From an uncultured Ruminococcus sp. (GTDB taxonomy: Bacteria; Bacillota; Clostridia; Oscillospirales; CAG-382), in assembly GCA_964402515.1 (NCBI GenBank), contig CAYOCM010000002.1:4669-68668 (forward strand): a stretch of 64,000 nt of DNA, written 5' to 3'. The number at the start of each line of letters is the position of its first letter. Position 1 is the stretch's first letter. A program made the translations under genes and the position numbers. Below are positions 10,042 through 57,081 of the stretch, one piece after another. Under the pieces are notes generated by a model. The model did not search any database, was not told the DNA's origin, and was given only the letters and a program-made list of their open reading frames with translations.

Positions 10042-10096
10042 TTTGTGTAATTATTTGATAGAATTACAAAAGACCATTAATTCGGAGAGTGATATC

Positions 10097-18494: not shown

Positions 18495-18523
18495 TTGACT
18501 TGATGCAAAAATAGTGATATACT
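18495..18523 (+). promoter_or_regulatory. sigma-A-type promoter for proS
   Basis: TTGACT (18495-18500), 17-nt spacer, TATACT (18518-18523). Confidence 0.55.
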
Positions 18524-18536
18524 TTTACATCATCAT

Positions 18537-18565
18537 ATTATACACGGTTTTGACGGTTTTTGCAA
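18537..18565 (-). promoter_or_regulatory. sigma-A-type promoter for the InlB-repeat operon
   Basis: Read on the minus strand: TTGCAA (18565-18560), 17-nt spacer, TATAAT (18542-18537). It lies back to back with the proS promoter. Confidence 0.55.
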
Positions 18566-18636
18566 TACCGTGCTTAACTTTTGATTATTTTTATTTTTTG
18601 GCATTAATTTTGACGCAAAGAAAGGAACTTTTTAAA

Positions 18637-24598: not shown

Positions 24599-24628
24599 TT
24601 GACAACACGGGCAAAAGTATGTTATATA
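24599..24628 (+). promoter_or_regulatory. sigma-A-type promoter for the glucosaminidase gene
   Basis: TTGACA (24599-24604), 17-18 nt spacer, TATATA (24623-24628). Confidence 0.5.
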
Positions 24629-24678
24629 TGATTGAGTATTTATTTTTTTCGGACGGCTTTTATTACGAGAGGAAACAT

Positions 24679-26946: not shown

Positions 26947-26983
26947 ACAGTTTAACATTAACCATCGTTAAAAGGTGCTTGCA

Positions 26984-37731: not shown

Positions 37732-38078
37732 ACAACATAACGCAATCACCCACTTATACCGAGCTTGCTCAGGCTGCGATGACGGCGTTTGAGGCAAAGC
37801 AGGGCATTGATCCCGTTATGCTCGACATCGAGAGCGTAACTTCGCTTGCAAGCGCTTTTGTAATAGTCTCGGGCGCATCGCACGCGCAGGTCAAAGCGCT
37901 TGCCGAATATGCCGAAGAATATATCTTTAACGAATACGGCATCAAACCCACACGTGTCGAGGGCAAGGGCGACAACGCCTGGACTTTGATGGATTACGGC
38001 CATGTCGTTTTGCATATCTTTACCCGCGAAGGCAGAGATTTTTATAAACTTGACAAGATATGGAAGGACGCCAAATAA
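37728..38078 (+). CDS. rsfS: ribosome silencing factor RsfS
   Basis: FVIVSGASHAQVKALAEY...WTLMDYGHVVLHIFTREGRDFYKLDKIW. Confidence 0.85.
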   Translation: MNNITQSPTYTELAQAAMTAFEAKQGIDPVMLDIESVTSLASAFVIVSGASHAQVKALAEYAEEYIFNEYGIKPTRVEGKGDNAWTLMDYGHVVLHIFTREGRDFYKLDKIWKDAK

Positions 38079-38079
38079 T

Positions 38080-40482
38080 ATGAAATACGACTATAAATCA
38101 ATTGACGCAAAATGGCAAAACAAATGGGAGCAGGCAAACGCTTTTGCCGCAGATGACAACTGCGCCGACAAGCCCAAGTTTTATGCGCTGGTAGAATTTC
38201 CCTATCCTTCGGGTGCGGGAATGCACGTCGGACACATCAAGGCTTATTCAGGCCTTGAGGTAATTTCGCGCAAGCGCAGGATGCAGGGATATAACGTGCT
38301 GTTTCCCATAGGATTCGACGCTTTCGGGCTGCCGACCGAAAATTCGGCGGTCAAATTCGGCATACATCCGCGCGTGCTCACCGACCGCAACATAGCGCGT
38401 TTTACCGATCAGTTAAAACGTGTCGGATTTTCATTTGACTGGTCGCGCGTTATAGACACCACAGACACCGATTATTATAAGTGGACTCAGTGGATATTTT
38501 TAAAAATGTTTGAAAACGGACTTGTGTTCCGTGACAAAGCGCTTGTAAACTATTGCCCTCACTGCAAAGTCGTACTCTCAAACGAAGACAGCCAGGGCGG
38601 CAAATGCGACATCTGCCACAGCGACATCGTTCAGCGCTCAAAAGACGTCTGGTATCTGCGCATAACCGAATATGCCGACAAATTGCTTTTCGGGCTCGAC
38701 GGCGTCGATTATCCCGCCCCGGTAAAACAGCAGCAGATAAACTGGATAGGCAGATCGACGGGCGCCTTTGTAAACTTTGATATCGACGGCATAGACGAAA
38801 AACTGCGCATATACACCACAAGGCCCGACACGCTTTTCGGCGTAACGTTTATGGTCATGGCGCCCGAACATCCTCTTATAGACAAATATCAGGACCGCAT
38901 AAGCAACATGGATGCGGTAAAAAATTACCGTGCCGAGTGCGCCAAAAAGACAGAATTCGAGCGCACTCAGATGAATAAAAACAAGACCGGCGTCAAGCTC
39001 GAGGGCATAAGCGCCGTCAACCCGCTGACCGGCAAAAAAATTCCCATATTTATAGCCGACTATGTCATGATGGGATACGGAACCGGCGCCATAATGGCCG
39101 TTCCCGCTCATGACGAACGCGACTGGGAGTTTGCAAAAAAGTTCGGCATCGAGATTATCGAGGTCATCAAAGGCGGCGATATATCAGAAGGTGCTTATAC
39201 CGGCGACGGCGAAATGATAAACTCTGAGTTTTTAAACGGATTTAAAGACAAAAAGAGTTCGATAGCACGCGCCGTAAAAGAACTTGAGGCAAGAGGCATA
39301 GGCGAAGCGGGCGTTCAGTATAAAATGAAAGACTGGGCGTTTAACCGTCAGCGTTATTGGGGCGAGCCTATTCCCATAATACACTGTCCCGAGTGCGGCA
39401 TGGTTCCCGTGCCTTATGACCAATTACCGCTTACATTGCCCGACGTTAAAAACTTTGAGCCCGGCGAAGGCGGCGAATCGCCTCTGGCAAAGATAGAGTC
39501 GTTTGTCAACTGCAAATGCCCCAAATGCGGCGGCGATGCAAAACGCGAGACCGACACGATGCCGCAGTGGGCGGGTTCGAGCTGGTATTATTTAAGATAT
39601 ATCGACCCGCACAACGATTCATGCCTCGCATCGCCCGAAAAACTCGACTATTGGATGCCCGTCGACTGGTACAACGGCGGCATGGAACACGTCACGCGGC
39701 ATATGATATATTCGCGTTTCTGGCATCATTTTCTTTATGATATCGGCGCTGTAAACACCCCCGAGCCTTATGCGAAACGCACCGCGCAGGGACTTATTCT
39801 GGGCCCCGACGGCGAAAAAATGAGCAAATCAAAAGGCAACGTGGTCGATCCGCTCGACGTGGTAGAAGCATACGGCGCCGACGTTCTGCGCACATATGTG
39901 CTGTTTATGGGCGATTATTCGGCCGCAGCACCCTGGTCGGACAACTCCGTCAGAGGCTGCAAGAGGTTTTTAGAACGTGTCGCAGACCTCAGCTCGATGA
40001 TAAAACCCGAGACCGACGCAAAATTAGAGGCGTCGTTCCACAAGACAGTCAAAAAAGTCACATCGGATATCGAAGAGATGAAATTCAACACCGCGATAGC
40101 CGCTTTGATGACTTTGTTCAATGAGATAAACGACTGCGGCGGTCTGACAAAAGACCAGCTCGTCACATTTATCAAACTGCTTTGCCCTATCGCTCCGCAC
40201 ATATGCGAAGAGATCTATGAGAGCATAGGCGGCAGTGGACTGCTTTCGCTGTCGCAATGGCCCGAATACGACGAAGAAAAACTTAAAGTGTCCGAGACAG
40301 AGATAGCCGTACAGCTTTGCGGCAAGTTAAAAGGCACCGTGACGGTTCCCACCGACTGCGACGAAGAGACCGCATGGCAGACGATTATCTCGTCGGGAGT
40401 GCTTGCAAACGCGCTTGACGGCAAGACCGTTGTTAAAAAGATATACGTCAAAAACCGCATATTCAATATCGTTGCAAAATAA
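38080..40482 (+). CDS. leuS: leucine--tRNA ligase
   Basis: MKYDYKSIDAKWQNKWE, a HIGH-type motif (PYPSGAGMHVGH) and KMSKS are present. ATG 38080 lies 1 nt after the rsfS stop. Confidence 0.95.
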   Translation: MKYDYKSIDAKWQNKWEQANAFAADDNCADKPKFYALVEFPYPSGAGMHVGHIKAYSGLEVISRKRRMQGYNVLFPIGFDAFGLPTENSAVKFGIHPRVLTDRNIARFTDQLKRVGFSFDWSRVIDTTDTDYYKWTQWIFLKMFENGLVFRDKALVNYCPHCKVVLSNEDSQGGKCDICHSDIVQRSKDVWYLRITEYADKLLFGLDGVDYPAPVKQQQINWIGRSTGAFVNFDIDGIDEKLRIYTTRPDTLFGVTFMVMAPEHPLIDKYQDRISNMDAVKNYRAECAKKTEFERTQMNKNKTGVKLEGISAVNPLTGKKIPIFIADYVMMGYGTGAIMAVPAHDERDWEFAKKFGIEIIEVIKGGDISEGAYTGDGEMINSEFLNGFKDKKSSIARAVKELEARGIGEAGVQYKMKDWAFNRQRYWGEPIPIIHCPECGMVPVPYDQLPLTLPDVKNFEPGEGGESPLAKIESFVNCKCPKCGGDAKRETDTMPQWAGSSWYYLRYIDPHNDSCLASPEKLDYWMPVDWYNGGMEHVTRHMIYSRFWHHFLYDIGAVNTPEPYAKRTAQGLILGPDGEKMSKSKGNVVDPLDVVEAYGADVLRTYVLFMGDYSAAAPWSDNSVRGCKRFLERVADLSSMIKPETDAKLEASFHKTVKKVTSDIEEMKFNTAIAALMTLFNEINDCGGLTKDQLVTFIKLLCPIAPHICEEIYESIGGSGLLSLSQWPEYDEEKLKVSETEIAVQLCGKLKGTVTVPTDCDEETAWQTIISSGVLANALDGKTVVKKIYVKNRIFNIVAK

Positions 40483-45751: not shown

Positions 45752-45788
45752 AAAAAGTTCGGCAACGCTTTTGTTGCCGAACTTTTTT
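45752..45788. terminator. bidirectional terminator
   Basis: AAAAGTTCGGCAAC (45753-45766) pairs with GTTGCCGAACTTTT (45773-45786) around a 6-nt loop. Confidence 0.85.
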
Positions 45789-45795
45789 GCTGTTT

Positions 45796-47193
45796 TTAAA
45801 ACTCAAGTGCTTTTGCGATATAATCCGCAACCTCGCTTATAGGCATACGAACCTGTTGCATACTGTCACGGTCGCGAACGGTGACGCAGCCGTCGGTTTC
45901 GGTATCAAAGTCATAAGTAACGCAGAAAGGTGTGCCTATCTCGTCCTCGCGACGATAACGTTTGCCTATCGAACCGGCATCGTCAAAGTCGCACATAAAC
46001 TTTTTGCACAGGTCGTTATAGACGTTTCTCGCGTTGTCCGAAAGCTTCTTTGAAAGCGGCAACACGGCGCACTTATAAGGCGCAAGTGCGGGATGCAGAC
46101 GCAATACCGTGCGGGTATCGGGCTTTTCGGGTGTGCCTATATCTTCTTCGTCATATGCGTCGACAAGGAACGCCAGCGCCACTCTGTCACAGCCCAGCGA
46201 AGGCTCGACGACATACGGCACATATTTTTCGTTTGTTTCGGGGTCGAAATATGTCATATCTTCGCCCGAATGCTGCATATGAGCCTTAAGGTCAAAATCG
46301 GTACGTGATGCGACGCCCCACAGTTCGCCCCAGCCGAACGGGAACATAAACTCAAAGTCGGTGGTGGCGTTTGAATAATGCGCAAGTTCTTTGGGGTCAT
46401 GGTCGCGCATTCTGATATTGTCTTCTTTTATGCCGAGGTCAAGCAACCACTTGCGGCAATAGTCTTTCCAATATTTAAACCATTCGAGCTCGGTGCCGGG
46501 TTTGCAGAAAAATTCAAGTTCCATCTGCTCAAACTCGCGTATACGGAATATAAAGTTGCCCGGAGTTATCTCGTTTCTAAACGATTTGCCGACCTGCGCA
46601 ACGCCGAAAGGAAGCTTGCGACGGGTAGTGCGCTGAATGTTTTTAAAGTTGACAAATATGCCCTGCGCAGTCTCGGGACGCAGATACACCTCTGCCTGGC
46701 TGTCTTCGGTCACGCCCTGATGCGTTTTGAACATCATGTTGAATTTGCGTATGGGAGTAAAATCGCACTTTCCGCACGAGCAGGTCACGCCGTGCTCGGT
46801 GATATAGGCCGACAGTTCATCACCCGACATACCGTCAAGGCACATATCAATGCCGTGCTCTTTGTTCCATGCCTCGATAAGTTGGTCGGCACGGTAACGC
46901 ATTTTGCATGCGCGGCAGTCGATGAGGGGATCGTTAAAGTTTACGACATGTCCCGAAGCAACCCAGACCTCGCGGTTCATCAATATCGCGCTGTCAAGTC
47001 CGACGTTATAGCCGCTCTCTTGCACAAATTTGCGCAGCCACGCGCGTTTGATATTGTTTTTGAGTTCTACGCCGAGGGGACCGTAATCCCAAGCGTTGGC
47101 AAGACCGCCGTAGATCTCGCTGCCCGAATAGACAAAACCTCTGCCCTTGCAGAATGCAACAAGTTTTTCCATGGTTTTTTCGGTATTTTGCAT
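45796..47193 (-). CDS. glyQS: glycine--tRNA ligase (dimeric GlyQS type)
   Basis: [47 protein letters not shown] lies 9 nt before ATG 47193. Confidence 0.95.
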
Positions 47194-47224: not shown

Positions 47225-49483
47225 TTATTCTGCAGATTGAATCTCGCCTGCCATACGGCTCATCTCGCGCTGTGCGCTGACAAGCTTATAATATCTGCCC
47301 TTGTTTGCCATCAGTTCGTCGTGCGTGCCGACCTCTTCAACCTCGCCTTTTTCAAGCACTATAAGCTTTGTGGCGTTGCGAAGCGTAGACAGCCTGTGCG
47401 CAATGGCAATAGTCGTTCTGCCCTCGATAAGTGCGGCAAGCGCGTCCTGAATGCGCCTTTCGGTCTCGGTATCAAGCGCCGATGTCGCCTCGTCAAGTAT
47501 CAGTATCTGCGGATCTTTTAATATTGCGCGTGCTATGGCAATGCGTTGCCTTTCGCCGCCCGACAGCGAATGACCGCCCTCACTGACGTAAGTGTTGTAT
47601 CCGTCGGGCTGTTTGACTATAAAATCGTGTGCACCGGAAAGTTTTGACGCGTGCAGTACCTCGTCTTTTGTCGCATCCGGTTTTGTATATACGATATTGC
47701 CGTATATAGTGCCTTTAAATAAGAATGTATCCTGCAACACCGCGCCTATCGATTCGCGCAGGGCGTGCTGTGAATAATTCTTTATATCTTTGCCGTCAAC
47801 GGTTATATTGCCGCCGTTGACATCATAAAGCCTCATCATCAGGTTTATCAGCGTAGACTTGCCCACACCGCTGCGTCCGACAATGCCCAACATCTCGCCT
47901 TTGCCAACATCAAAACTTACGTTTTTAAGCACTTTTTCATAGCTGTTGTATCCGAACGAAACGTCATTGAACGTAATATTGCCGTCTTTTATTTCGGTCA
48001 AAGCGTCGGTTTGGTCGGCAACCTCGATAGGCTCGTCAAGTATATCGAATATCTTTGTCAGCGCTATCGTCGTGCGCGCTATGCGGCGCGGCATAAATGC
48101 CATCCAACGAATAGGTCCGTAGATTATCGAAACATAGCTTGTAAACTCTATCAAAGTACCGAGAGTGTAACCGTCCTGTCCCGCTATGATACGGCTGCCC
48201 ACAAATATTATCGCGGCATATTCGCCGAAACTGAACATAAAGTTCATAAACGGCATTATCAGGTTCCAAACAAGTTCGTTGCGTTTTGAGATATCGGCAA
48301 CGCGCTTTGCCGACTTGTCAAAACGCGCTTCTTCATACCTTTCGGTGCCGAATATCTTGACCACGCGTATGCCCGAAAACACATCGTGCAAAAGCGAACC
48401 GGCTTCTTCTTCGACATTCCATTGGCGATGATATCCGCTAAAGGCAAAACGCCTTGCCGACGTAAACAAAAACACCATGGGAATGACCGGTATCAAAACA
48501 AGCAACGACAGTTTAAAGTCGGTAAACAGCATTATGCCGCCGACTCCGACGATGGTGGAGATCTGAAATATCAGGTCGGGCAATGTCGAAACGAGGAATT
48601 CTTTTATAGTGTCCGAGTCGCCGCTGAGCCTGGATATCAATTCGCCCGCAGAGCGGCGCATTATGCCTGCCAAAGACAGTTTTTGTATCTTGTCATACAA
48701 TGCGGCACGTATATCGACGAGCAATCCGTTGCCTGCTTTTGCCGTCATGCGACGGCGTATCATATTGAATACGGCGGTAAGCAATCCGCAGCCTGCCGTG
48801 GCAAGCACCAACAGCAGATATTCTGTCTCGGCGTTCGGATTTGAGATATTTGTCGCATCCGGTGAAAGATATCCGTCGACCATGGCACCGTTTATCTTGG
48901 GCAGTATCATACTGATGACCGTGCCCAAAAGCAACAGCACGGCGGTCATTATTATCTTAAAAGCATAAGGTTTTGCAAACGGAATTATGCGCGAATAAAG
49001 CTTGCGTTTGTTGACGCAGTGCGGGCATATATGCGAACCGTGCGGATATTGTTTGCCGCATTTGGGGCAATTTGTTTCGGGTTCTTCTTGCACCTCGGTC
49101 TTGTTTATAAAAGCGTTTGCAAGCGACGAAGCGCGCATCATTGCCTTTGACGACGACATATCGGAGCGGCAAAATTCGCGTTCGCTGCCATCGGATGCCG
49201 TATATTCTATCGAACAGCAACCTACCGAATTGACATATTTGACGTCTTTTATACCGTCAAGCGACAGTTTTGTTTCGGGCATGCCGAGCGATTTGTGCCA
49301 TAAATATCCGTCTGCATATGCCGCGGCGGCAAAAGTGCGCCCTTTTTCGTCAAGTGTGCAGGCAAACACCGCTTTTTTGTCGCCGCACGCGGCGGCAAGT
49401 TCGTCTTTAACCGCTTTTATTTCGGGCGATTCAATGACTTGCCCGTCTTTTTTGTTGCGGCTTAAAAGTGATTTGATACTCAT
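47225..49483 (-). CDS. ABC exporter (fused TMD-NBD) with an N-terminal soluble domain and zinc ribbon
   Basis: CPKCGKQYPHGSHICPHCVNK precedes 6 TM helices. The NBD has GRSGVGKST, LSGGERQRIAIARA, ILILDEATSALD and IAHRLS. Confidence 0.85.
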   Translation of the reverse strand: MSIKSLLSRNKKDGQVIESPEIKAVKDELAAACGDKKAVFACTLDEKGRTFAAAAYADGYLWHKSLGMPETKLSLDGIKDVKYVNSVGCCSIEYTASDGSEREFCRSDMSSSKAMMRASSLANAFINKTEVQEEPETNCPKCGKQYPHGSHICPHCVNKRKLYSRIIPFAKPYAFKIIMTAVLLLLGTVISMILPKINGAMVDGYLSPDATNISNPNAETEYLLLVLATAGCGLLTAVFNMIRRRMTAKAGNGLLVDIRAALYDKIQKLSLAGIMRRSAGELISRLSGDSDTIKEFLVSTLPDLIFQISTIVGVGGIMLFTDFKLSLLVLIPVIPMVFLFTSARRFAFSGYHRQWNVEEEAGSLLHDVFSGIRVVKIFGTERYEEARFDKSAKRVADISKRNELVWNLIMPFMNFMFSFGEYAAIIFVGSRIIAGQDGYTLGTLIEFTSYVSIIYGPIRWMAFMPRRIARTTIALTKIFDILDEPIEVADQTDALTEIKDGNITFNDVSFGYNSYEKVLKNVSFDVGKGEMLGIVGRSGVGKSTLINLMMRLYDVNGGNITVDGKDIKNYSQHALRESIGAVLQDTFLFKGTIYGNIVYTKPDATKDEVLHASKLSGAHDFIVKQPDGYNTYVSEGGHSLSGGERQRIAIARAILKDPQILILDEATSALDTETERRIQDALAALIEGRTTIAIAHRLSTLRNATKLIVLEKGEVEEVGTHDELMANKGRYYKLVSAQREMSRMAGEIQSAE

Positions 49484-49485
49484 TT

Positions 49486-50046
49486 TTATAGATACAATTC
49501 TATCTTGCGATAGCTCTTTCTGTCAAGCGCTCCGACATCTTTTATCGAAAATCTGTTGCCGTCGGAATCGTTTAAAATAAGGCGCGTTTCGCTTATGCGA
49601 ATAATATTGCGATATGTATCCTGCATCGAAAAACGCATCCTGCCGTTGTCTGTCTCGACATCCCAATAAGACGTGCCGAGTTTTTCTTTAACAGAATAAA
49701 TGCGGGTTATCTCGGGACAGAAATATTTGCGCGCCAATTCTTTTTTAATAATCTCGGCCTGCTCGCCGTCGAAATCCGACAGGCGTCTGATGACTCCGTA
49801 TTCTTTGCCGTCACGGTCGAGCACGGCGATATATTCGTCGGGCGTCTCAAACGGAAACATGCGGTGGAACCACACCCTGCCCAGTTCTTGCCAAACGGGT
49901 TCGCCCGCGGGCTTGCCGTCAAGGTCATCCTCTTTTACCGGCGGCAAAAACGCCTTAAGGCATGCAAATCCGCCCTCGGTCATTCCGAAAACGGCGTTGC
50001 TTTTGTCAAGATATGTCAGTTGTATATAATCAAGAAATCCTGCCAT
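49486..50046 (-). CDS. DUF1854 domain protein
   Basis: FPFETPDEYIAVLDRDGKEYGVIRRL...LARKYFCPEITRIYSVKE...WDVETDNG...DSDGNRFSIKDVGALDRKS matches my recollection of DUF1854, a family typically encoded between paired ABC exporter genes. Confidence 0.7.
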   Translation of the reverse strand: MAGFLDYIQLTYLDKSNAVFGMTEGGFACLKAFLPPVKEDDLDGKPAGEPVWQELGRVWFHRMFPFETPDEYIAVLDRDGKEYGVIRRLSDFDGEQAEIIKKELARKYFCPEITRIYSVKEKLGTSYWDVETDNGRMRFSMQDTYRNIIRISETRLILNDSDGNRFSIKDVGALDRKSYRKIELYL

Positions 50047-50069
50047 TTTACAGCACCCCTTTTTTAAAA

Positions 50070-52448
50070 TTATTGCGGCGGAGGTCCCGGAGGAGGTCCG
50101 CCCGGACCGCCGGGCCCGTGGCCTTCAGCACCGGCATATGCCTCGTCGCCTATACCTATCATTTTAAGCGCCTCGGTCTGCATTTTATAAAGCTTATAAT
50201 AAACGCCGTTCATTGCGATAAGCTCGTCCACCGTGCCGCGTTCGACAACCCTGCCGTTTTCGATAACTATCAGGCTGTCGGCGTCACGAAGCGTGGATAA
50301 CCTGTGAGCGATGATTATGGTCGTTCTGCCTTTTGAAAGCTTCGAGAGTGCCTCGCTTATATGTCTTTCGGTCTGGGTGTCCATAGCGGCGGTAGCTTCG
50401 TCAAGTATCAATATGCGCGGGTCTTTTAATATGGCGCGCGCTATCGAAACACGCTGTCTTTCGCCGCCCGAAAGTTCTTTGTGTCCGAACCCTATCATAG
50501 TGTCGTATCCGTCGGGATATTTGACTATAAACGAATGTGCTCCCGCCATTTTTGATGCGGCAACGACCTCTTCAAATGTGGCGTCGGGACGCGCATAGCG
50601 TATATTGTCAAGCAAAGAGCCTTTAAACAGATATGTTTCCTGGCTGACTATGGCAAGGTTTTTGCGCAGTGACGTCATGGTGCAGTCACGCACGTCGACA
50701 CCGTCTATCTTTATGCTGCCGCGCTCGACATCATAAAGCCTTGCCAAAAGGTTGACTATGGTCGACTTGCCCGCGCCGGTATGGCCGACTATGCCCAGCG
50801 TATGTCCAGCCTCGATCTTAAACGAAACGTTGTCTATGATACGTCTTGTATCGGCATATGAAAAATATACACCGTCAAATTCAACATCGCCTTTAACCGT
50901 TCCCAGGTCGACGGCATTTTCTTTTTCGATAACATCGGGCACTGCCGACGTTATCTGAAACAGTCTGTGCAAAGCGTTAAGGCAGCTGCTCCACCAGTTT
51001 GCGACGTCGGCAAGCGTCTCGATAGGGTCAAACATCATCGAGAAATATGCGACAAACGACATCAGCGTGCCGTAGTCCATGCCTTCTCCGCCCGATGTAT
51101 AGCGCATTACCGAGAGGCCGCCTATGGCCCAGACGATATAAGAGCCTATTTTGAATAAAAAGAATATAAACGGGAATATCGACGCCTGCTTTACCGACAG
51201 TTCGGTGGATACCTCGGCAGAACCGCGGCTGCGGCTGTCAAACCTGCGCTTTTCATCCTCTTCGCGCGAGAACACTTTGACCACTCTCATGCCGTTAAGC
51301 ACATCGGATATCAACGAGTTGAGCGAACGGCGGCGCGAATAATCTTTTATATAAAGCTTGTCAAACACGTCATAAAGCCACTTGAACAAAAAGAAGAACA
51401 CCGGCACCGTGACAAACGCATACAGCGCAAGTATCGGGTCAAGCAAAAGCATTATGACAAACACCAGCACAAGTTGAACGATATTTAATACAAAATAGGG
51501 AAATCCGTCGCAGAAAAACCAATACATCGTCTGCGAGTCAGAGTTTATCTGCGTCATCAAACCGCCCGTCTGCCGGTTTGTAAAAAACGACAGCGAAAGC
51601 CTGCTGATAGCGTCGAATATCTGCTTTTTAAGGTCATAAGTGACATCGGCAGACACCTTGGCGCTGATAGAGCCGTTGACAAGTTGCACAAGCAACATAA
51701 CTATTCTTATGCCTACCATAAGCGCAACTATCTGCCATATCTTGCCGTAATACCTGCCGCCTTCGGTAAGAACGTCGTTATAAAATATGCTGTTGCTGAT
51801 ATACGGTGTCAGGGCGCCCAGCGCCGATATCGCCGCCAACGACAAAATTACGGTCAAAATGCTGCCCTTATACCTTAAAAACACACCCGCAAGCTGTTTG
51901 ATAAGCTTGACGCTGTCCATGCAATTGGGGCAAACTTTGCTTTCGATATCGGGATATCTTTCGCCGCACTTGGGACAATGATATTGATCGTAGCTGTCTT
52001 TTTTATAATTGGACTTGTCTATGTCGCCGGTTTCTTTAAATTCGGTGACCGCTTTTGCAAATACCGCAGAATCGTGGCGGTATCTGTTTGTATAATTAAA
52101 CAGTCTGTTGTCGACGTCTCCGATAGCGGCAACGGCGCAGCCTGTGGATATAAGCTGTTCGCATTTCACCTCGCTTATTTCGGAGATATCTATTTTTTCG
52201 CTGCGATCGAACACAAAACTTTCGGAACGTTTTTTTGAACCGTTGTATCTGCGTGAACCGTCGGCGGTTATCATTACCGTGCCCTCGGCGATATATATAT
52301 GACGTCTGTCGAACGCGACAAAGACGTCTTTGGGCGTTTCGTCACTGCCGAGGTCACTGCGCATTATAAACAGCGCGTCCGCGGCGTTAAGCCCCTGCGA
52401 CGCAAAATGCTGTTTTACAGATATCGGCAATTTGCATAATGCAACCAT
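50070..52448 (-). CDS. ABC exporter (fused TMD-NBD) with an N-terminal soluble domain, zinc ribbon and Pro/Gly tail
   Basis: CPKCGERYPDIESKVCPNCMD; GHTGAGKST, LSGGERQRVSIARA, ILILDEATAAMD, IAHRLS; the protein ends GHGPGGPGGPPPGPPPQ. GGAGG lies 8 nt before ATG 52448, and the track ATG 52466 reads through that SD. Confidence 0.85.
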   Translation of the reverse strand: MVALCKLPISVKQHFASQGLNAADALFIMRSDLGSDETPKDVFVAFDRRHIYIAEGTVMITADGSRRYNGSKKRSESFVFDRSEKIDISEISEVKCEQLISTGCAVAAIGDVDNRLFNYTNRYRHDSAVFAKAVTEFKETGDIDKSNYKKDSYDQYHCPKCGERYPDIESKVCPNCMDSVKLIKQLAGVFLRYKGSILTVILSLAAISALGALTPYISNSIFYNDVLTEGGRYYGKIWQIVALMVGIRIVMLLVQLVNGSISAKVSADVTYDLKKQIFDAISRLSLSFFTNRQTGGLMTQINSDSQTMYWFFCDGFPYFVLNIVQLVLVFVIMLLLDPILALYAFVTVPVFFFLFKWLYDVFDKLYIKDYSRRRSLNSLISDVLNGMRVVKVFSREEDEKRRFDSRSRGSAEVSTELSVKQASIFPFIFFLFKIGSYIVWAIGGLSVMRYTSGGEGMDYGTLMSFVAYFSMMFDPIETLADVANWWSSCLNALHRLFQITSAVPDVIEKENAVDLGTVKGDVEFDGVYFSYADTRRIIDNVSFKIEAGHTLGIVGHTGAGKSTIVNLLARLYDVERGSIKIDGVDVRDCTMTSLRKNLAIVSQETYLFKGSLLDNIRYARPDATFEEVVAASKMAGAHSFIVKYPDGYDTMIGFGHKELSGGERQRVSIARAILKDPRILILDEATAAMDTQTERHISEALSKLSKGRTTIIIAHRLSTLRDADSLIVIENGRVVERGTVDELIAMNGVYYKLYKMQTEALKMIGIGDEAYAGAEGHGPGGPGGPPPGPPPQ

Positions 52449-52478
52449 ACGACCGCCTCCTTTCATAACTTTTACATT

Positions 52479-54608
52479 TTACATCATCTTATCGTTAAAA
52501 TCAATAGCGAGTTTGGACACAGCACAAATGTTCTTGCAAATTTGGGCAAAATCACTTAATTTTTTGTCGTTTTTTGTGCTGTATGCCTCAAGCGGCGTTG
52601 CAAAAAAACGGCCGTATATATCCGGCACTGCGTTTTGCGGCAAGATATCGCCGCAAAGTTTGCGACCGAGCAATTTCATCTGCGGCAAAGTTATCGCCGC
52701 AAGCGTTTCATAGCAGTTGCCTATGCAATAATCCGAAGCTATATTCTTTTTAAACGCAGTCTCAAAGCAAGGGTTGACATCACTCTCGAGTTTTATGTCT
52801 TCAAGCGTTTTATAAGCGATATAGTCATCGTGCGTGCCCAAAAGTTCGGTATAATATTCAAGCGCTTTGCATATCGACTTATAAGGTGTAAGGTGATCGC
52901 CGCCGCAAAAATATGCTTTTTGCAAAACAAGCATTTCAAAATGCATAAACCTTGCCGCCGCGGTACGTGCGATGTCATAAAGAGCGCGTACGGCGTGAAT
53001 GTCGTCTTTAAACCGTGCGTATATATCGGCACACAGCGACAAAACAGTCGGAATGCCGTGCATGACTTTATAAAACCTCGGCAGATAAAATTCGGCTCGC
53101 GATATCTCTTTTGCCGTATATTCGTCAAAATCAAGGTTGTATCCGTAAGGCGACAACAAGACCGACGCAAAATATTCACGGTGCATATCGTATTCCGGAT
53201 GCTGTCTGTCAAGGCTGAATTTTTCAAGCGACGCTATGGGATAAAGCGTTTTTATCAGTTTTTGGGCATCCGAATCTGCGCCGAAAACTTCGTCGGAATA
53301 ACCTTGCAGTATCTCTTGCAAAGGCATATCTCCGCCGTATGTGCATTTGCGCGCAAGATATGACAGCATAACTCCGTCCCCGTGCGACAGTTCCTGCCAA
53401 TTGACAAGTCCCGAGCAAAAAACGTCGTTTTGCGTGCCTTTGAGCCGGCGCTCGATGAATTCATAATCGCCGCGTATATCATCCTGCGGGGCATAGGCGT
53501 GTATCAGGCCGAGCATATACGGAAACTTATTTTTAAGCCCCCAAGCCTCAAAACCCATATCCTGCCCGTCGGCGTCGACGGTATAATCAAATATAATGCT
53601 TTTTTGCGCGTCAAGCAAAGCGACAAACTCTTTTACTTCGTCCGCATACCAAAACATAGACATATCCCAACCTGCTATAAGCGTTTTTGCCGACGGATAT
53701 CTTTCGGCCGTGCGGCAGAGAGTGCGGCGCAAAACATCGGCTTTAAGCGCTATGCTCTGTTCGTGCGTGTCGCCGTATACTCTTTCGGCAAGCCCTATGG
53801 TATGAAACATATCTCCCATGCCGTTGTATTTTATGTCGGCATCGGTCAGTTTTTGATAAATATCAAGCCCCTCGTCTTTGCGCACATCAAATACCGAGAG
53901 TTCTTTTTGCGCATAAAGCTCGCCCGATTGGGCAAGATAAGACGGGTGGGCGCTGTCTGCAAAACTTTTTGGCGTGGGTGAATACCAGTGCGTCACGGCA
54001 CCGCAGTCGACGGCGTGTTTAAGGCCGCGTTCTCTTGCGTACGCAAGCACTTTACGTCTTAGTTCGCCGCGATATTCAAGACTCCAAAACAGACTGCGGT
54101 CATAAAAACCCTCTCTGTCGCTTTTCTGCGCGATATCGGGATAAGGGCAATATTCGGGGAACGCCTTTTGCCACAGATCATCATGCCCTATGCGCAACAT
54201 AAAAAAGTTAAATCCGTTTTTAATAAGATAATCCATCTCGCGTTTCCAATCTTCATATCCCCACATCTCGGCTCTGAAACGCTTAAGGCCTCGGTGTGCA
54301 AAATAACGCATTCCGCGCAAGGCGTATGCGGGCGTTATGTCTTTTTTAAACGTTTTGGGCGTCGCTTTTTCTTTGGGCAATCGGTCACAGTCCCAAAACC
54401 ATTTTGCGCCGTGAAACGCAAAATAGTCATATACGCCGTAAAGCAAAGCTATGCGGCCGCCCGCCGTTATCGCTACCTCGTTTTCGGATGCCGATATAAC
54501 TCGCCTTCCCTCGTCAAAGTCACTGTTTATGTTCATCATGGGTTTCGGCTTTGACGCAAGCATCAAAGACGCGTATTTATCAAATTCTTTAAGTGCGATA
54601 TCAAACAT
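52479..54608 (-). CDS. GH89 (alpha-N-acetylglucosaminidase)-like protein, no signal peptide
   Basis: MWGYEDWKREMDYLIKNGFNFFMLRIGHDDLWQKAF, IAGWDMSMFWY...IIFDYTVDADG and FPYMLGLIHAYAP parallel NAGLU TIM-barrel motifs as I recall them. The assignment is tentative. Confidence 0.5.
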   Translation of the reverse strand: MFDIALKEFDKYASLMLASKPKPMMNINSDFDEGRRVISASENEVAITAGGRIALLYGVYDYFAFHGAKWFWDCDRLPKEKATPKTFKKDITPAYALRGMRYFAHRGLKRFRAEMWGYEDWKREMDYLIKNGFNFFMLRIGHDDLWQKAFPEYCPYPDIAQKSDREGFYDRSLFWSLEYRGELRRKVLAYARERGLKHAVDCGAVTHWYSPTPKSFADSAHPSYLAQSGELYAQKELSVFDVRKDEGLDIYQKLTDADIKYNGMGDMFHTIGLAERVYGDTHEQSIALKADVLRRTLCRTAERYPSAKTLIAGWDMSMFWYADEVKEFVALLDAQKSIIFDYTVDADGQDMGFEAWGLKNKFPYMLGLIHAYAPQDDIRGDYEFIERRLKGTQNDVFCSGLVNWQELSHGDGVMLSYLARKCTYGGDMPLQEILQGYSDEVFGADSDAQKLIKTLYPIASLEKFSLDRQHPEYDMHREYFASVLLSPYGYNLDFDEYTAKEISRAEFYLPRFYKVMHGIPTVLSLCADIYARFKDDIHAVRALYDIARTAAARFMHFEMLVLQKAYFCGGDHLTPYKSICKALEYYTELLGTHDDYIAYKTLEDIKLESDVNPCFETAFKKNIASDYCIGNCYETLAAITLPQMKLLGRKLCGDILPQNAVPDIYGRFFATPLEAYSTKNDKKLSDFAQICKNICAVSKLAIDFNDKMM

Positions 54609-54651
54609 AATACACCCCGTAAATTAATATATCTCAAAAAGGAGTCGTTAA

Positions 54652-55374
54652 ATGTTAAAACGAGCCGCCGTGTTTTTTGCCGTATTTATGTGTTGCCTGC
54701 CGCTTATGCTTTGCGCTTCGGCGGAAACAAATTATGCGCAAAACCGTTATTATGCGCTTATAACACCCGCATCAAGCGGATTCCCCGACACGGGCAAAAA
54801 ACTTACCGACGGCAAGACGGGCGGCAAGACGGCATCCGGCAAGACAGAGTATTATTATAAAGACGATGCGTTTGTGGGTTTTAACCGCGTTTCAGCGCAA
54901 AACGGCTGTTTTAGCATAATCATCGACCTAAACGACACCGTATCCGACATAACGAGGTTTGAGGTTTCGGCATTGTGCGAAACCGATATAGGAATATATG
55001 AGCCGAAAAAGATATCGGTATCTGTAAGCGACACGTTTGACGGCGAGTATATGTCGGTTGCCGAATATCAAAATACGGTGCGCACCGCCGCCGGATTATC
55101 CGAGACCGTCACGCTGCGCGCCGTGCCCGAGCAAAAAGCAAAAGGCAAATATGTCAGATTTGACATTTATTGCATAAACGACAGGTCGGGTTGGGTGTTT
55201 ATAGACGAATTGCGCGTTATAGGCGGCAACCGGACAAACGCCGAAACCGTCTTTGCCGATACCGCTTTGCAAAGCGGCGGCAAACGTGTGGATGTCGGGT
55301 ATATGCCGTGGATCTTGACAGGCATCGGCTGCGGACTGATAACTTTTGCCGTATTGCGACGAAACAAAAGCTGA
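54652..55374 (+). CDS. secreted, C-terminally anchored protein with a discoidin (F5/8 type C)-like domain
   Basis: Signal peptide; the LTDGKTGG...WVFIDELRV pattern; C-terminal TM helix followed by RRNKS. Confidence 0.5.
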   Translation: MLKRAAVFFAVFMCCLPLMLCASAETNYAQNRYYALITPASSGFPDTGKKLTDGKTGGKTASGKTEYYYKDDAFVGFNRVSAQNGCFSIIIDLNDTVSDITRFEVSALCETDIGIYEPKKISVSVSDTFDGEYMSVAEYQNTVRTAAGLSETVTLRAVPEQKAKGKYVRFDIYCINDRSGWVFIDELRVIGGNRTNAETVFADTALQSGGKRVDVGYMPWILTGIGCGLITFAVLRRNKS

Positions 55375-55379
55375 TACAA

Positions 55380-55420
55380 GCCGAGGCTGCCGTGCGGCAG
55401 CCTCGTTGTATATATTTTAT
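55380..55420. terminator. hairpin terminator between convergent genes
   Basis: CGAGGCTGCC (55382-55391) pairs with GGCAGCCTCG (55396-55405) around the loop GTGC, followed by a T-rich tail. Confidence 0.65.
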
Positions 55421-57081
55421 TCTATATCCTCTTTTTTGACGAGCCCGCGCGAGACATATTTATCTTTTGCAAACAGATATGTGTTGTCGTATACCGTGCG
55501 GGTGAGTGCGTCGTCCGAAACAAACGAACGGTAAAACTCGCCGGGAACGCCGCCCTGATAATACATTTTTATCGTGTGCATAAATCCGGTCTCTGCACCG
55601 CAGTCGAGATACTGAGTATATCTCTCGATATCCTCGGGCGAAAGTCCGCCTATCTCGAGCTCATAGCACATACCGAGCTGTTTGGTCATAGCGGCATTGT
55701 CATAAAGCCTTTTTACCGGCTCGGCCTTGCGAAAAGCGTAGTTCGGCTGCATACATGCAATGTCAAAACCGTTTTCTTTCCAATCGGCATATCCCCACGC
55801 CTCAAAATAAGGTATCCATATAAGTTTAAGGCCTTTTGAATGCACATATTCGCGCGCAAATTCAAGCAAAGGCAATTCAAATTCGTCGCTGTAATTGATG
55901 ACCTCTTCAAACCAATAAAATCCGCAGAGTTCAAGGTGCTGCCTGTCTTTCTCGGCATAGCGCTCGAGCTGGGTGTCTATGCACCATTTGACGGCTTTTT
56001 TGCGCCCCTCGAACGTAGTCATATCCTCGTCGACGCCGTCCCCGTCTATGTCGCCGAATTTTTCGGGAAATTCTCCGTATGTGACTTTGGTATGCAATAT
56101 CGACAAAAAGACTTTTATCTTAAGATCGTCGAGCCCCAGGCGGTTTTGTACTTCGGCCGCCGCTTTGTCAAGCGCGTCGACATTGGCGTTTTCGGCAAAG
56201 GTATTGTCGATATAATATCTCCAGCCTTCGGCGCATTTATAAAGCGAAGAATAAGTATAAGCCGAATAAGGTAAAAACAGCATCGAATCAAAAAACGTGT
56301 CTGTCATCTCGCCGTTTTTGTTTATATATCCGAGATGCGGAATAAACTGTTCTGCCGTAGTAAGCCCCGATCTTTCGTCTTTCATATTCTTGGGAGGCAG
56401 GCAGTTATACGCCAACATTATATTGTGAATATCGCAAAGGTCGCTGTAATCGGGATATTTGTCAACATATCTGACCTCGTCGCAACCCTCTTTTGCTTCG
56501 GCGGTTATTTCGACCGCATCGTCGGGTATAACCGCGGTACCGACGGCCTTGATCTCGTCGACCCAAATATGGCAGGGCACATCAAACTCTATTGTAATAT
56601 ATCCCGTGATATACGGCCTGTCAAAATCGGCACCGACCACTACCGTCTCGGGCGTGTTTTTTGACGCTATGTTGCGCGCCTTTACAACTCTTTGCCAGTT
56701 TTCGCCGTCGGGAGAAAGATATATATCGACGCGTCTGGGCAGTCTTACGCCCACTTCGTCCTCACGCAAAAAACTTATGCTGACCGACTGCACGGCAGAC
56801 AGCGAATCAAGTTTAAAAACTATCGATCTGCCGCCCCCGCGCGAAAAATGAAAGAATGCGGGATCTTGATAAGAATTTGTCTTTGCGCTGACTCCGTCGG
56901 TCATAAGCAAAGATGTATCTTTGGTGTTGTGATAATCGTTTTCGTAAGTAACGCCGAGAGGCGCATCTGTCGTTATGCGAAATACGGGCACGCCCTGCAA
57001 AAGATTTACGCGTGACATGCTTGCGTCGGCGCTTTCGGCAAGTCGTGCGGGATATATCTCGCGTTTTGTATACCAGCTCAT
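55417..57081 (-). CDS. discoidin-like N-terminal domain fused to an uncharacterised (possibly DUF4855-type) domain
   Basis: N-terminal pattern LLMTDGVSA...HIWVDEIKAVG, then an uncharacterised C-terminal domain of about 350 aa. No signal peptide. The family name is from recollection only. Confidence 0.45.
   Translation of the reverse strand: MSWYTKREIYPARLAESADASMSRVNLLQGVPVFRITTDAPLGVTYENDYHNTKDTSLLMTDGVSAKTNSYQDPAFFHFSRGGGRSIVFKLDSLSAVQSVSISFLREDEVGVRLPRRVDIYLSPDGENWQRVVKARNIASKNTPETVVVGADFDRPYITGYITIEFDVPCHIWVDEIKAVGTAVIPDDAVEITAEAKEGCDEVRYVDKYPDYSDLCDIHNIMLAYNCLPPKNMKDERSGLTTAEQFIPHLGYINKNGEMTDTFFDSMLFLPYSAYTYSSLYKCAEGWRYYIDNTFAENANVDALDKAAAEVQNRLGLDDLKIKVFLSILHTKVTYGEFPEKFGDIDGDGVDEDMTTFEGRKKAVKWCIDTQLERYAEKDRQHLELCGFYWFEEVINYSDEFELPLLEFAREYVHSKGLKLIWIPYFEAWGYADWKENGFDIACMQPNYAFRKAEPVKRLYDNAAMTKQLGMCYELEIGGLSPEDIERYTQYLDCGAETGFMHTIKMYYQGGVPGEFYRSFVSDDALTRTVYDNTYLFAKDKYVSRGLVKKEDIE

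What the first reader, a model, noticed from the sequence alone, without database searches (positions are those of the whole stretch)
47225..52466. Paired ABC exporters with matching N-terminal domain plus zinc-ribbon extensions, flanking a DUF1854 gene
Both half-transporters carry a cytoplasmic extension of about 150-190 aa before TM1. The two extensions have parallel layouts. Each has a beta-rich segment (KDVKYVNSVGCCSIEYT in one, SEVKCEQLISTGCAVAA in the other), then a helical segment, then a CPxCG-x(7-9)-CPxC zinc ribbon immediately before the membrane domain.

Both NBDs have fully canonical Walker A, signature, Walker B-Glu and H-loop motifs, so both ATP sites look competent. A 186-aa DUF1854 protein is encoded between them, with gaps of 2 nt and 23 nt. 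The upstream transporter ends in a Pro/Gly tail (GHGPGGPGGPPPGPPPQ).

To my knowledge the ABC-DUF1854-ABC arrangement recurs in Firmicutes and Actinobacteria but has no assigned substrate or mechanism. The N-terminal modules (PH-like fold is my guess) and the DUF1854 protein could be regulatory or substrate-delivery parts of a three-component exporter.
Basis: partly seen in the sequence, partly recalled or inferred. Interest (0 to 1): 0.6.

Follow-up and report, generated by a model that had tools for sequence, protein, structure and literature searches.

The report
ABC exporter pair with DUF1854 partner
Two neighbouring ABC export-pump genes, each with an unusual cytoplasmic PH-like domain plus zinc ribbon at its front end, flank a small DUF1854 gene; this is a gut-Clostridia variant of a poorly studied pump family, tied to cyanophycin synthesis genes in other bacteria, and its cargo here is unknown.

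Summary
Three co-directional minus-strand genes encode ABC1 (50070..52448, true start probably M7 of the listed ORF), a DUF1854 protein (49486..50046) and ABC2 (47225..49483).

- **ATP sites:** both half-transporters carry canonical motifs.
- **N-terminal modules:** the two are homologous even without the zinc ribbon (hhalign 97%, E 6e-11). The CxxC...CxxC ribbon is conserved in about 250 orthologues.
- **Fold:** AlphaFold2 (pLDDT 88.7) gives seven strands plus a C-terminal helix. All top 50 PDB Foldseek hits are PH-superfold domains, though weakly (best E 7e-3). No Pfam model covers it.
- **Recurrence:** ABC1-DUF1854-ABC2 occurs in 52 of 62 testable Clostridia loci.
- **Fusions:** four natural ABC1-DUF1854 fusions exist; in the two whose loci I examined, ABC2 follows. 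This argues for one physical complex.

It is not wholly new. The best NCBIfam hits are 'cyanophycin metabolism-associated ABC transporter' and its DUF1854 partner, both below cut-off. A true Ralstonia member beside cphA/cphA' has the same PH-like plus zinc-ribbon front end. Price et al. proposed DUF1854 as a subunit of an amino-acid-polymer exporter.

The Clostridial form differs: it is heterodimeric, and no cphA lies in the window or within 10 kb in 88 loci. Cargo and mechanism remain inferred. Verdict: new variant of a known kind, moderate interest.

The parts
50070..52448 (-). ABC1: half-size ABCB-type (type IV) exporter, 792 aa from the probable start M7. The mechanical ORF reaches 52466.
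   Evidence: ORF. GGAGG lies 7 nt before the ATG at 52448, and orthologues start at the same Met. Pfam ABC_membrane and ABC_tran. Closest solved relatives are ABCB1/ABCB4, TM287/288, Sav1866, TmrAB and MsbA, all matching only from residue ~180 onward.
52029..52448 (-). ABC1 N-terminal PH-like domain: N-helix, 7 strands including a long hairpin insertion, then a C-terminal helix.
   Evidence: AF2 pLDDT 88.7. Foldseek top 50 all PH-superfold, probability up to 0.99, best E 7e-3. No Pfam family. Always N-terminal among 434 profile hits in 1.84 billion proteins.
51921..51977 (-). ABC1 zinc ribbon CPKCGERYPDIESKVCPNC, directly before the elbow helix and TM1.
   Evidence: Four Cys are invariant in alignment A2. 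Present in 120/120 orthologues. Sub-threshold Pfam zinc-ribbon hits.
51024..51851 (-). ABC1 transmembrane domain (6 TM, ABC_membrane).
   Evidence: Pfam PF00664, E 5.5e-31, residues 206-481 in ORF numbering.
50388..50834 (-). ABC1 nucleotide-binding domain with consensus Walker A, Q-loop, LSGGE, Walker B-Glu and H-loop.
   Evidence: Pfam PF00005. Motif scan.
50073..50123 (-). ABC1 Pro/Gly-rich C-terminal tail GHGPGGPGGPPPGPPPQ.
   Evidence: Seen directly. Present only in the closest clade. It sits where the NBD-DUF1854 linker lies in the fused proteins.
49486..50046 (-). DUF1854 protein, 186 aa, cytoplasmic accessory subunit. Two beta-rich lobes, each capped by a helix. Near-invariant C-terminus LDRKSYRKIELYL.
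   Evidence: Pfam PF08909, E 9e-42. NCBIfam NF052234 102 bits, below the 150 cut-off. Alignment A1. AF2 pLDDT 88.8. Fused to the ABC1 C-terminus in P0346, P0348, P0353 and P0363.
47225..49483 (-). ABC2: second half-size ABCB-type exporter, 752 aa, 38% identical to ABC1 over 637 aa.
49088..49483 (-). ABC2 N-terminal PH-like domain, homologous to that of ABC1 but lacking its hairpin insertion.
   Evidence: hhalign without the zinc ribbon: probability 97.1%, E 5.8e-11, 98 columns.
49016..49069 (-). ABC2 zinc ribbon CPKCGKQYPHGSHICPHC.
   Evidence: Conserved in 68/69 ABC2 orthologues.
48113..48955 (-). ABC2 transmembrane domain.
   Evidence: Pfam PF00664, E 1.7e-39, residues 177-457.
47480..47929 (-). 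ABC2 nucleotide-binding domain, all consensus motifs present.
   Evidence: Pfam PF00005. Motif scan.
45796..47193 (-). Glycyl-tRNA synthetase gene, 31 nt downstream on the same strand. Probably co-transcribed. A conserved neighbour, not a demonstrated functional part.
   Evidence: Pfam. The gap is seen. GlyRS lies downstream in 34/62 related loci. The only strong terminator-like hairpin lies after it, at 45752..45787.
52479..54608 (-). NAGLU-like 709-aa gene, 30 nt upstream of ABC1 on the same strand. A neighbour only in the closest relatives.
   Evidence: Pfam PF05089, weak. Present upstream in only 2/62 loci, and in L001.

Best explanation
The three genes encode one machine: a heterodimeric ABCB-type (type IV fold) ATP-driven exporter made of ABC1 and ABC2.

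**Architecture.** Each half carries, on the cytoplasmic side just before its elbow helix and TM1, a PH-like beta-sandwich domain followed by a four-cysteine zinc ribbon. The third protein, DUF1854, is a soluble cytoplasmic subunit that works beside the nucleotide-binding domain of ABC1.

**Family placement.** The system is a duplicated, asymmetric Clostridia branch of the DUF1854-associated ABC exporter family. The betaproteobacterial members of that family are a single ABC gene plus DUF1854. They sit next to cphA/cphA' and are genetically tied to a cyanophycin-like amino-acid polymer.

**Proposed mechanism (inferred).** The two PH-like/zinc-ribbon modules and DUF1854 would form a cytoplasmic platform under the transporter. 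That platform would capture a cytoplasmically made cargo and/or gate NBD closure. Two fully competent ATP sites would then drive export. The cargo is most likely a peptide-like or polymeric molecule rather than a small drug.

**Shown versus inferred.** Shown here: the architecture, the homology of the two modules, the PH-like fold prediction, the conserved gene order, the fusions, and the family relationship. Inferred: physical contacts, transport direction (from the exporter fold), the role of the modules, and the cargo. In this organism the cargo is unknown and apparently not specified by neighbouring genes.
For: - **Gene order.** The order is conserved in 52/62 related Clostridia loci. It also appears in independent metagenome contigs.
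- **Fusions.** Four proteins of 935-1013 aa have the layout N-module-TMD-NBD-linker-DUF1854. In Clostridium sp. Marseille-P299 and a Limnochordales MAG, the fusion gene is followed at once by an ABC2-type gene.
- **ATP sites.** Both NBDs keep all catalytic motifs across orthologues.
- **N-modules.** They are homologous to each other, predicted with high confidence as PH-like, and always N-terminal to an ABC exporter core.
- **Family link.** NF052233 and NF052234 are the top NCBIfam hits for all three proteins. A bona fide member, Ralstonia wenshanensis (1460 and 234 bits), has cphA-cphA' next to ABC-DUF1854. It also has a PH-like region plus CPTC...CPQC ribbon before TM1.
- **Genetics in relatives.** DUF1854, the ABC gene and cphA/cphA' are cofit in Acidovorax and Cupriavidus (Price et al., 10.1101/072470).
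- **Precedent for PH-domain accessories.** The PH-domain proteins DdE and DdF are required for ABC-dependent export of enterocin DD14 (PMC8657885).
- **Exporter fold.** The nearest solved cores are ABCB1/ABCB4, TM287/288, Sav1866 and MsbA.
Against: - No interaction was computed or measured.
- No cargo-synthesis gene is linked. tblastn with both Ralstonia CphA proteins finds nothing in the 64-kb window or in 88 related loci, 1.48 Mb in total. Other neighbours vary between lineages.
- The three proteins score well below the NCBIfam equivalog cut-offs: 482 and 506 against 880, and 102 against 150.
- Nine of 62 loci have DUF1854-ABC2 with no ABC1 nearby. The heterodimer may therefore not be obligatory.
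- The PH-like assignment rests on a predicted model and on Foldseek E-values of only 7e-3 to 0.1.
- DUF1854 has no convincing structural match.
Confidence: 0.55

Rival explanations
1. It is a genuine cyanophycin (or cyanophycin-like poly-amino-acid) exporter, as in betaproteobacteria. The synthetase gene would simply be encoded elsewhere in the genome.
For: The top NCBIfam hits are the cyanophycin-associated ABC and DUF1854 models. The Ralstonia member shares the same domain architecture. Cofitness with cphA/cphA' is reported in two betaproteobacteria.
Against: Scores are far below the equivalog cut-offs, while the Ralstonia control passes easily. No cphA-like sequence occurs in the window or within 10 kb of the system in 88 loci. 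The Clostridial system is heterodimeric and diverged, at 30% (DUF1854) and 34-37% (ABC) identity to Ralstonia.
Confidence: 0.15
2. It is an ordinary heterodimeric multidrug or lipid efflux pump of the BmrCD / LmrCD / TM287-288 / MsbA kind. The PH-like/zinc-ribbon modules and DUF1854 would be purely regulatory ligand sensors that tune ATPase activity, not cargo handlers.
For: The core is closest to ABCB1, TM287/288, Sav1866 and MsbA. No biosynthetic genes are linked. PH-like domains often bind small ligands or lipids (established knowledge). The system is widespread and syntenic with housekeeping genes such as GlyRS.
Against: Both ATP sites are consensus. From my own knowledge (not tested here), the well-studied Firmicute heterodimers have one degenerate site (for this system). 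No transcriptional regulator typical of drug pumps is conserved nearby. The family's only genetic data point to a polymer pathway.
Confidence: 0.2
3. It is a peptide or bacteriocin secretion ABC transporter. The N-terminal module would play the role of the C39/C39-like domain of PCAT or HlyB-type exporters, or of the PH-domain accessories of leaderless-bacteriocin exporters.
For: NCBIfam similarity to HlyB, NHLP and bacteriocin ABC exporters is substantial, at 250-360 bits. PH-domain proteins are required for enterocin DD14 export. The N-terminal cytoplasmic position mirrors C39-like domains (established knowledge).
Against: No precursor-peptide, immunity, membrane-fusion or modification genes are conserved next to the system. 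The N-module has no similarity to peptidase C39. The DdE/DdF-type bPH Pfam families did not hit.
Confidence: 0.07

Closest known systems
NCBIfam NF052233 / NF052234: cyanophycin metabolism-associated ABC transporter and its DUF1854 partner (e.g. Ralstonia wenshanensis KOL96_03340/03345; Cupriavidus basilensis RR42_RS04420 neighbourhood)
   Same: Same overall architecture: PH-like region, then CxxC...CxxC zinc ribbon, then 6-TM ABCB-type domain, then NBD, with a DUF1854 protein encoded directly downstream. These models are the best NCBIfam hits for all three window proteins.
   Different: - The betaproteobacterial form has one ABC gene (presumably a homodimer) and sits beside cphA/cphA'. The window has two diverged paralogues (38% identity) flanking DUF1854, and no cphA.
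- Scores are roughly half the equivalog cut-offs.
- The window's DUF1854 protein has an extra ~30-50 N-terminal residues.
Heterodimeric bacterial ABCB-type exporters (TM287/288, TmrAB, BmrCD, LmrCD)
   Same: Two adjacent half-transporter genes. Type IV exporter fold. High sequence similarity of the TMD-NBD core.
   Different: Those lack any N-terminal cytoplasmic domain and any DUF1854 partner. From my own knowledge (not tested here), they typically have one degenerate ATP site. Here both sites are consensus.
ABC exporters with N-terminal cytoplasmic cargo-docking domains (HlyB C39-like domain, PCAT C39 peptidase)
   Same: A cytoplasmic domain placed immediately before TM1 of an ABCB-type half-transporter. 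This is a functional analogy for cargo recruitment (established knowledge).
   Different: Unrelated fold and sequence: a PH-like beta-sandwich plus zinc ribbon instead of a papain-like C39 domain. No membrane-fusion protein or substrate gene is nearby.
PH-domain accessory proteins of leaderless-bacteriocin ABC exporters (DdE/DdF of enterocin DD14)
   Same: Bacterial PH-type domains are needed for ABC-dependent export of a cytoplasmic peptide (PMC8657885).
   Different: DdE and DdF are separate proteins. Here the PH-like domain is fused to the transporter. No bPH Pfam family matches, and no bacteriocin genes are present.

Membership tests
ABCB-type (type IV fold) ABC exporter, half-transporter | N-terminal 6-helix ABC_membrane domain followed by an ABC_tran NBD in one polypeptide | tested here: met
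   Pfam PF00664 and PF00005 in both proteins. Closest solved chains are ABCB1/4, TM287/288, Sav1866 and MsbA.
ABCB-type (type IV fold) ABC exporter, half-transporter | Catalytically competent NBD motifs (Walker A, Q-loop, signature, Walker B-Glu, H-loop) | tested here: met
   All present in ABC1 and ABC2, and conserved in orthologues.
ABCB-type (type IV fold) ABC exporter, half-transporter | ATP-dependent outward transport of a substrate | not testable with these tools
   Needs transport or ATPase assays.
DUF1854 (Pfam PF08909) | Score above the Pfam gathering threshold | tested here: met
   142.4 bits against a 26.8 cut-off.
DUF1854 (Pfam PF08909) | Encoded next to, or fused with, an ABC exporter | tested here: met
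   52/62 loci show ABC1-DUF1854-ABC2, 9/62 show DUF1854-ABC2, and 1/62 has an extra gene inserted before ABC2. Four fusions exist.
NCBIfam NF052233, cyanophycin metabolism-associated ABC transporter (equivalog) | Whole-protein score at or above the curated cut-off of 880 bits | tested here: not met
   ABC1 482.5 bits, ABC2 506.5 bits. The Ralstonia control scores 1460 bits.
NCBIfam NF052233, cyanophycin metabolism-associated ABC transporter (equivalog) | Genomic association with cyanophycin synthetase genes | tested here: not met
   No CphA-like sequence in the 64-kb window or in 88 related loci. No CphA-type domain in Pfam scans of 20 large ORFs in the window. The rest of the genome could not be examined.
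NCBIfam NF052233, cyanophycin metabolism-associated ABC transporter (equivalog) | N-terminal PH-like region plus zinc ribbon preceding the TMD | tested here: met
   ABC1 aligns to profile positions 25-746 in one stretch. The Ralstonia member has the CPTC...CPQC ribbon before TM1. Its N-region matches the ABC2 N-module profile at E 1e-11.
NCBIfam NF052234, cyanophycin metabolism-associated DUF1854 protein (equivalog) | Score at or above the curated cut-off of 150 bits | tested here: not met
   102.5 bits. The Ralstonia control scores 234 bits.
PH-domain superfold | Seven-stranded beta-sandwich closed by a C-terminal alpha-helix | tested here: met
   AF2 model, pLDDT 88.7: strands at 27-33, 39-46, 50-66, 72-87, 91-98, 102-109 and 112-120, then helix 121-140. 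All top 50 PDB Foldseek hits are PH/PTB/FERM-F3 domains. This is a predicted structure, not a solved one.
PH-domain superfold | Statistically strong structural match to a solved PH domain | tested here: inconclusive
Zinc ribbon (C4) | Two CxxC knuckles, conserved, about 10-11 residues apart | tested here: met
   Present in 120/120, 67/67 and 68/69 orthologues. Pfam zinc-ribbon models hit below threshold.
Zinc ribbon (C4) | Binds a zinc ion | not testable with these tools
   Needs metal analysis.
Anti-phage defence systems (PADLOC) | Match to a defence-specific protein model | tested here: not met
   Only generic ABC-ATPase similarity. DUF1854 has no hit.

The most novel reading that the evidence does not exclude
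The PH-like/zinc-ribbon front ends and DUF1854 together form a so-far undescribed cytoplasmic cargo-loading apparatus for ABCB-type exporters. It would recognise a cytoplasmically synthesised polymer or peptide and feed it into the pump. In gut Clostridia, this asymmetric two-pump version would export a cargo unrelated to cyanophycin, made by genes that are not linked to the system. That cargo could be an unrecognised envelope or extracellular component common to Oscillospirales.
Probability: 0.25. Interest if true: 0.7.

Novelty: new variant of a known kind. Interest (0 to 1): 0.45.

Why it matters
**Knowledge gap.** DUF1854-associated ABC exporters are widespread but have no structure, no biochemistry and no proven substrate. 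The only functional lead is cofitness with cyanophycin-synthetase-like genes in two betaproteobacteria.

**What this locus adds.**
- A PH-like domain plus zinc ribbon fused ahead of TM1 appears to be a family hallmark, from Ralstonia to Clostridia.
- At least 193 species-level Clostridia genomes carry the Clostridia-type DUF1854. Among 62 testable loci, 52 have the duplicated, asymmetric ABC1-DUF1854-ABC2 form, with no cphA nearby.
- Natural fusions tie DUF1854 to the C-terminus of one NBD.

**Experiments this makes possible.** The complex could be co-expressed for cryo-EM. Ribbon and DUF1854 mutants could be made. A cargo search could be run in gut anaerobes.

**Payoff.** If the modules load a polymer or peptide, this would be a new way of coupling cytoplasmic cargo recognition to an ABCB-type pump. 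If they only regulate, it is a modest addition to ABC transporter diversity.

Tried and rejected
- **Homology search with the ABC1 N-extension alone.** The search for homologous proteins returned nothing, apparently a limit of the word index. The full-length query worked.
- **PDB sequence searches.** The DUF1854 protein and both N-extensions gave only chance zinc-finger hits.
- **N-modules as divergent DUF1854 domains, or DUF1854 as an internal duplication.** hhalign probabilities were 1% or less, so both ideas were rejected.
- **Riboswitch or T-box linking the operon to glyQS.** Rfam found nothing in the whole window.
- **cphA linkage.** tblastn with Ralstonia CphA and CphA' found nothing.
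- **Defence-system reading.** PADLOC gave only generic ATPase hits.
- **Source genome.** An exact look-up of the window's DUF1854 protein is not on record.
- **Plasmid collection.** Only two Ralstonia megaplasmids carry a DUF1854 gene, so the Actinobacteria claim could not be checked.
- **PilZ-type c-di-GMP motifs.** I looked by eye for RxxxR and D/NxSxxG in the N-module and did not find them. Foldseek gave PH, not PilZ, hits.
- **Variable neighbours.** The NAGLU-like gene, a 686-aa HExxH lipoprotein, a heparinase-like 566-aa protein and a GpsA-like 320-aa protein showed no consistent partner.
Full report
**1. What is in the sequence**

Three minus-strand ORFs lie at the reported coordinates:
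- 50070..52466, 798 aa, called ABC1 here
- 49486..50046, 186 aa
- 47225..49483, 752 aa, called ABC2 here

The gaps are 23 nt and 2 nt. Pfam finds ABC_membrane plus ABC_tran in both large proteins and DUF1854 (E 9e-42) in the small one.

The listed start of ABC1 is probably six codons too early. The sequence reads ATGAAAGGAGGCGGTCGTATG, so a GGAGG lies 7 nt before the second ATG at 52448. Every orthologue starts at the equivalent Met.

ABC1 and ABC2 are 38% identical over 637 residues. Both carry Walker A, Q-loop, LSGGE, Walker B-Glu and H-loop. These motifs are conserved in 63/63 ABC1 and at least 62/65 ABC2 orthologues. The closest solved structures are ABCB1/ABCB4, TM287/288, Sav1866, TmrAB and MsbA. 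All of them align only from residue ~180 onward, so no solved structure covers the N-terminal extension.

**2. The N-terminal extensions**

The four-cysteine motif is conserved as follows:

| Subunit | Motif in the window | Conservation |
|---|---|---|
| ABC1 | CPKCGERYPDIESKVCPNC | 120/120 database orthologues; 67/67 genome loci |
| ABC2 | CPKCGKQYPHGSHICPHC | 68/69 genome loci |

Profile-profile comparison of the two extensions gives probability 99.5%, E 4e-22. With the ribbon removed it still gives 97.1%, E 5.8e-11 over 98 columns. ABC1 has a ~24-residue hairpin insertion that ABC2 lacks.

I ran AlphaFold2 on ABC1 residues 7-195 with 34 orthologues:
- Mean pLDDT is 88.7 and pTM is 0.81.
- An N-terminal helix is followed by seven strands and a 20-residue helix.
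- The ribbon comes next, then the elbow helix.

All 50 best Foldseek matches in the PDB are PH-superfold domains, including NF1 Sec-PH, GRK2 PH, Sin1 PH, TBC1D23 PH, FERM F3 and PTB. Probabilities reach 0.99, but E-values are only 7e-3 to 0.1. The PH-like guess is therefore supported at fold level only.

Pfam has no model for this part. Across 34 orthologues, only sub-threshold zinc-ribbon families hit.

A profile of the extension finds 434 cluster representatives among 1.84 billion proteins. In the best 150 listed, it is at or near the N-terminus. The full-length hits I scanned are ABC exporters of ~740-810 aa.

**3. DUF1854**

The protein is well conserved. Its C-terminus LDRKSYRKIELYL is nearly invariant. 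The AF2 model has pLDDT 88.8 and shows two beta-rich lobes, each ending in a helix. Foldseek finds no convincing PDB match. It shows no detectable homology to the N-extensions and no internal repeat.

**4. Recurrence and evidence for a complex**

A genome scan found 193 species genomes carrying the Clostridia-type DUF1854. All 80 retrieved loci are Bacillota MAGs: Oscillospiraceae, 'Ruminococcus' and Eubacteriales. The nearest is 85% identical.

Of the 62 loci with enough flank on both sides:
- 52 have ABC1 upstream and ABC2 downstream.
- 9 have DUF1854-ABC2 with no ABC1 within 10 kb. A ProRS gene on the other strand lies there instead.
- 1 has an extra gene inserted before ABC2.

Four proteins of 935-1013 aa are natural fusions with the layout N-module-TMD-NBD-linker-DUF1854. 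Three come from Oscillospiraceae, Limnochordales and Clostridium sp. Marseille-P299; the fourth has no source name. In the two fusion loci I examined, an ABC2-type gene with its own ribbon follows directly.

This is classic fusion evidence that DUF1854 works at the C-terminal (NBD) end of ABC1, in a complex with ABC2. The Pro/Gly tail of the window's ABC1 lies where the fusion linker lies. It exists only in the nearest clade.

**5. Relation to what is known**

The best NCBIfam hits are NF052233 and NF052234:

| Protein | Model | Score (bits) | Cut-off (bits) |
|---|---|---|---|
| ABC1 | NF052233, cyanophycin metabolism-associated ABC transporter | 482 | 880 |
| ABC2 | NF052233 | 506 | 880 |
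| Window DUF1854 | NF052234, DUF1854 partner | 102 | 150 |
| Ralstonia ABC (control) | NF052233 | 1460 | 880 |
| Ralstonia DUF1854 (control) | NF052234 | 234 | 150 |

Window scores are and control scores.

The Ralstonia wenshanensis megaplasmid locus has cphA and cphA' divergent from ABC (768 aa) and DUF1854 (156 aa). Its ABC also has a PH-like-looking region and a CPTCKAPLPPSEDNCPQC ribbon before TM1. The front end is therefore a family hallmark.

Price et al. (bioRxiv 10.1101/072470) reported that DUF1854, the ABC gene and cphA/cphA' are cofit in Acidovorax and Cupriavidus. They proposed export of an amino-acid polymer and noted the occasional fusions. I found no other paper mentioning DUF1854 or PF08909. 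I also found none describing a PH-like/zinc-ribbon ABC exporter.

A functional precedent for PH-domain helpers of ABC export exists in the enterocin DD14 system (PMC8657885).

**6. How the window's system differs**
- It is heterodimeric and asymmetric.
- tblastn with both Ralstonia CphA proteins finds nothing in the window or in 88 related loci, 1.48 Mb in total.
- Pfam scans of 20 large ORFs across the window (10 flanking the locus, 10 elsewhere) show no synthetase of that kind.
- Other neighbours change from lineage to lineage.
- Only GlyRS is often downstream, in 34/62 loci. In the window it lies 31 nt away with no intervening terminator. This looks like inherited synteny.
- Rfam finds no T-box or other RNA element anywhere in the window.
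- PADLOC gives no defence-system signal.

**7. Interpretation**

The best-supported reading is a three-protein ABCB-type exporter. Its cytoplasmic face carries two diverged PH-like/zinc-ribbon modules plus DUF1854.

By analogy with C39-like domains of HlyB-type exporters and with the DdE/DdF PH proteins, I propose that these parts recruit cargo and/or gate NBD closure. This step is inference. The cargo in Clostridia is unknown.

The rivals are:
- a true cyanophycin-type exporter with cphA encoded elsewhere
- a drug or lipid pump with purely regulatory add-ons
- a peptide exporter

**8. Verdict**

I classify this as a new variant of a known, uncharacterised kind, of moderate interest.

Noticed in passing
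window 52448..52466 (-): The mechanical ORF for ABC1 starts six codons too early. GGAGG sits 7 nt before the ATG at 52448, and all orthologues start at that Met. A sigma-70-like match (TTGATT-17-TAAAAT, 52504..52476) lies just upstream, inside the end of the NAGLU-like gene.
   Followed up: partly
L015, L017, L019, L021, L023, L025, L028, L031, L036 (DUF1854 at ~10001..10546): One Clostridia sub-clade has DUF1854-ABC2(-GlyRS) but no ABC1 within 10 kb upstream. In the one locus inspected (L015), a prolyl-tRNA synthetase-like gene on the opposite strand lies there instead. ABC1 may be elsewhere in the genome or lost, which would imply an ABC2 homodimer.
   Followed up: partly
window 45796..47193 (-); also 38002..40482 (+) and 18514..20067 (+): GlyRS follows the transporter genes with a 31-nt gap. 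It is downstream in 34 of 62 related loci. The window also encodes LeuRS and ProRS, yet Rfam finds no T-box or any other RNA family in the whole 64 kb.
   Followed up: partly
window 52479..57081: A NAGLU-like protein (709 aa, no signal peptide by eye) lies upstream with a 240-aa protein (apparent signal peptide and C-terminal TM segment, by eye; no Pfam hit) and a DUF4855 protein (554 aa). The cluster is conserved only in the nearest relatives (L001/L009, L008).
   Followed up: partly
window 50073..50123 (-); P0100, P0104, P0112: Pro/Gly low-complexity stretches appear in two different places in different clades. One is the C-terminal tail of ABC1 (nearest clade only). The other is an insert in the N-terminal part of DUF1854 in a human-gut clade. 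Both lie near the junction that is a linker in the fused proteins.
   Followed up: partly
window 13241..15337 (-) and 26975..28768 (+): Two long ORFs (698 aa and 597 aa) have no Pfam match at E 1e-5.
   Followed up: no
window 24619..26889 (+): A 756-aa protein combines a glucosaminidase domain, Big_2 and SH3_3 domains and a type I dockerin. This suggests a cellulosome-bearing Ruminococcus-like organism, which fits the nearest DUF1854 relatives.
   Followed up: no
L003 12823..14883; L012 12787..14838: In some relatives a ~685-aa predicted lipoprotein with an HEIMHAMD metalloprotease-like motif is inserted between ABC2 and GlyRS. Other lineages have a GpsA-like 320-aa gene there, or a heparinase-like 566-aa gene.
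   Followed up: no
ABC1 orthologues P0127-P0155, C-termini; window DUF1854 residues 174-186: ABC1 orthologues end in a conserved 'EALKTIGI' segment after the NBD. DUF1854 ends in the near-invariant 'LDRKSYRKIELYL'. Either could be a docking peptide. Not analysed further.
   Followed up: no
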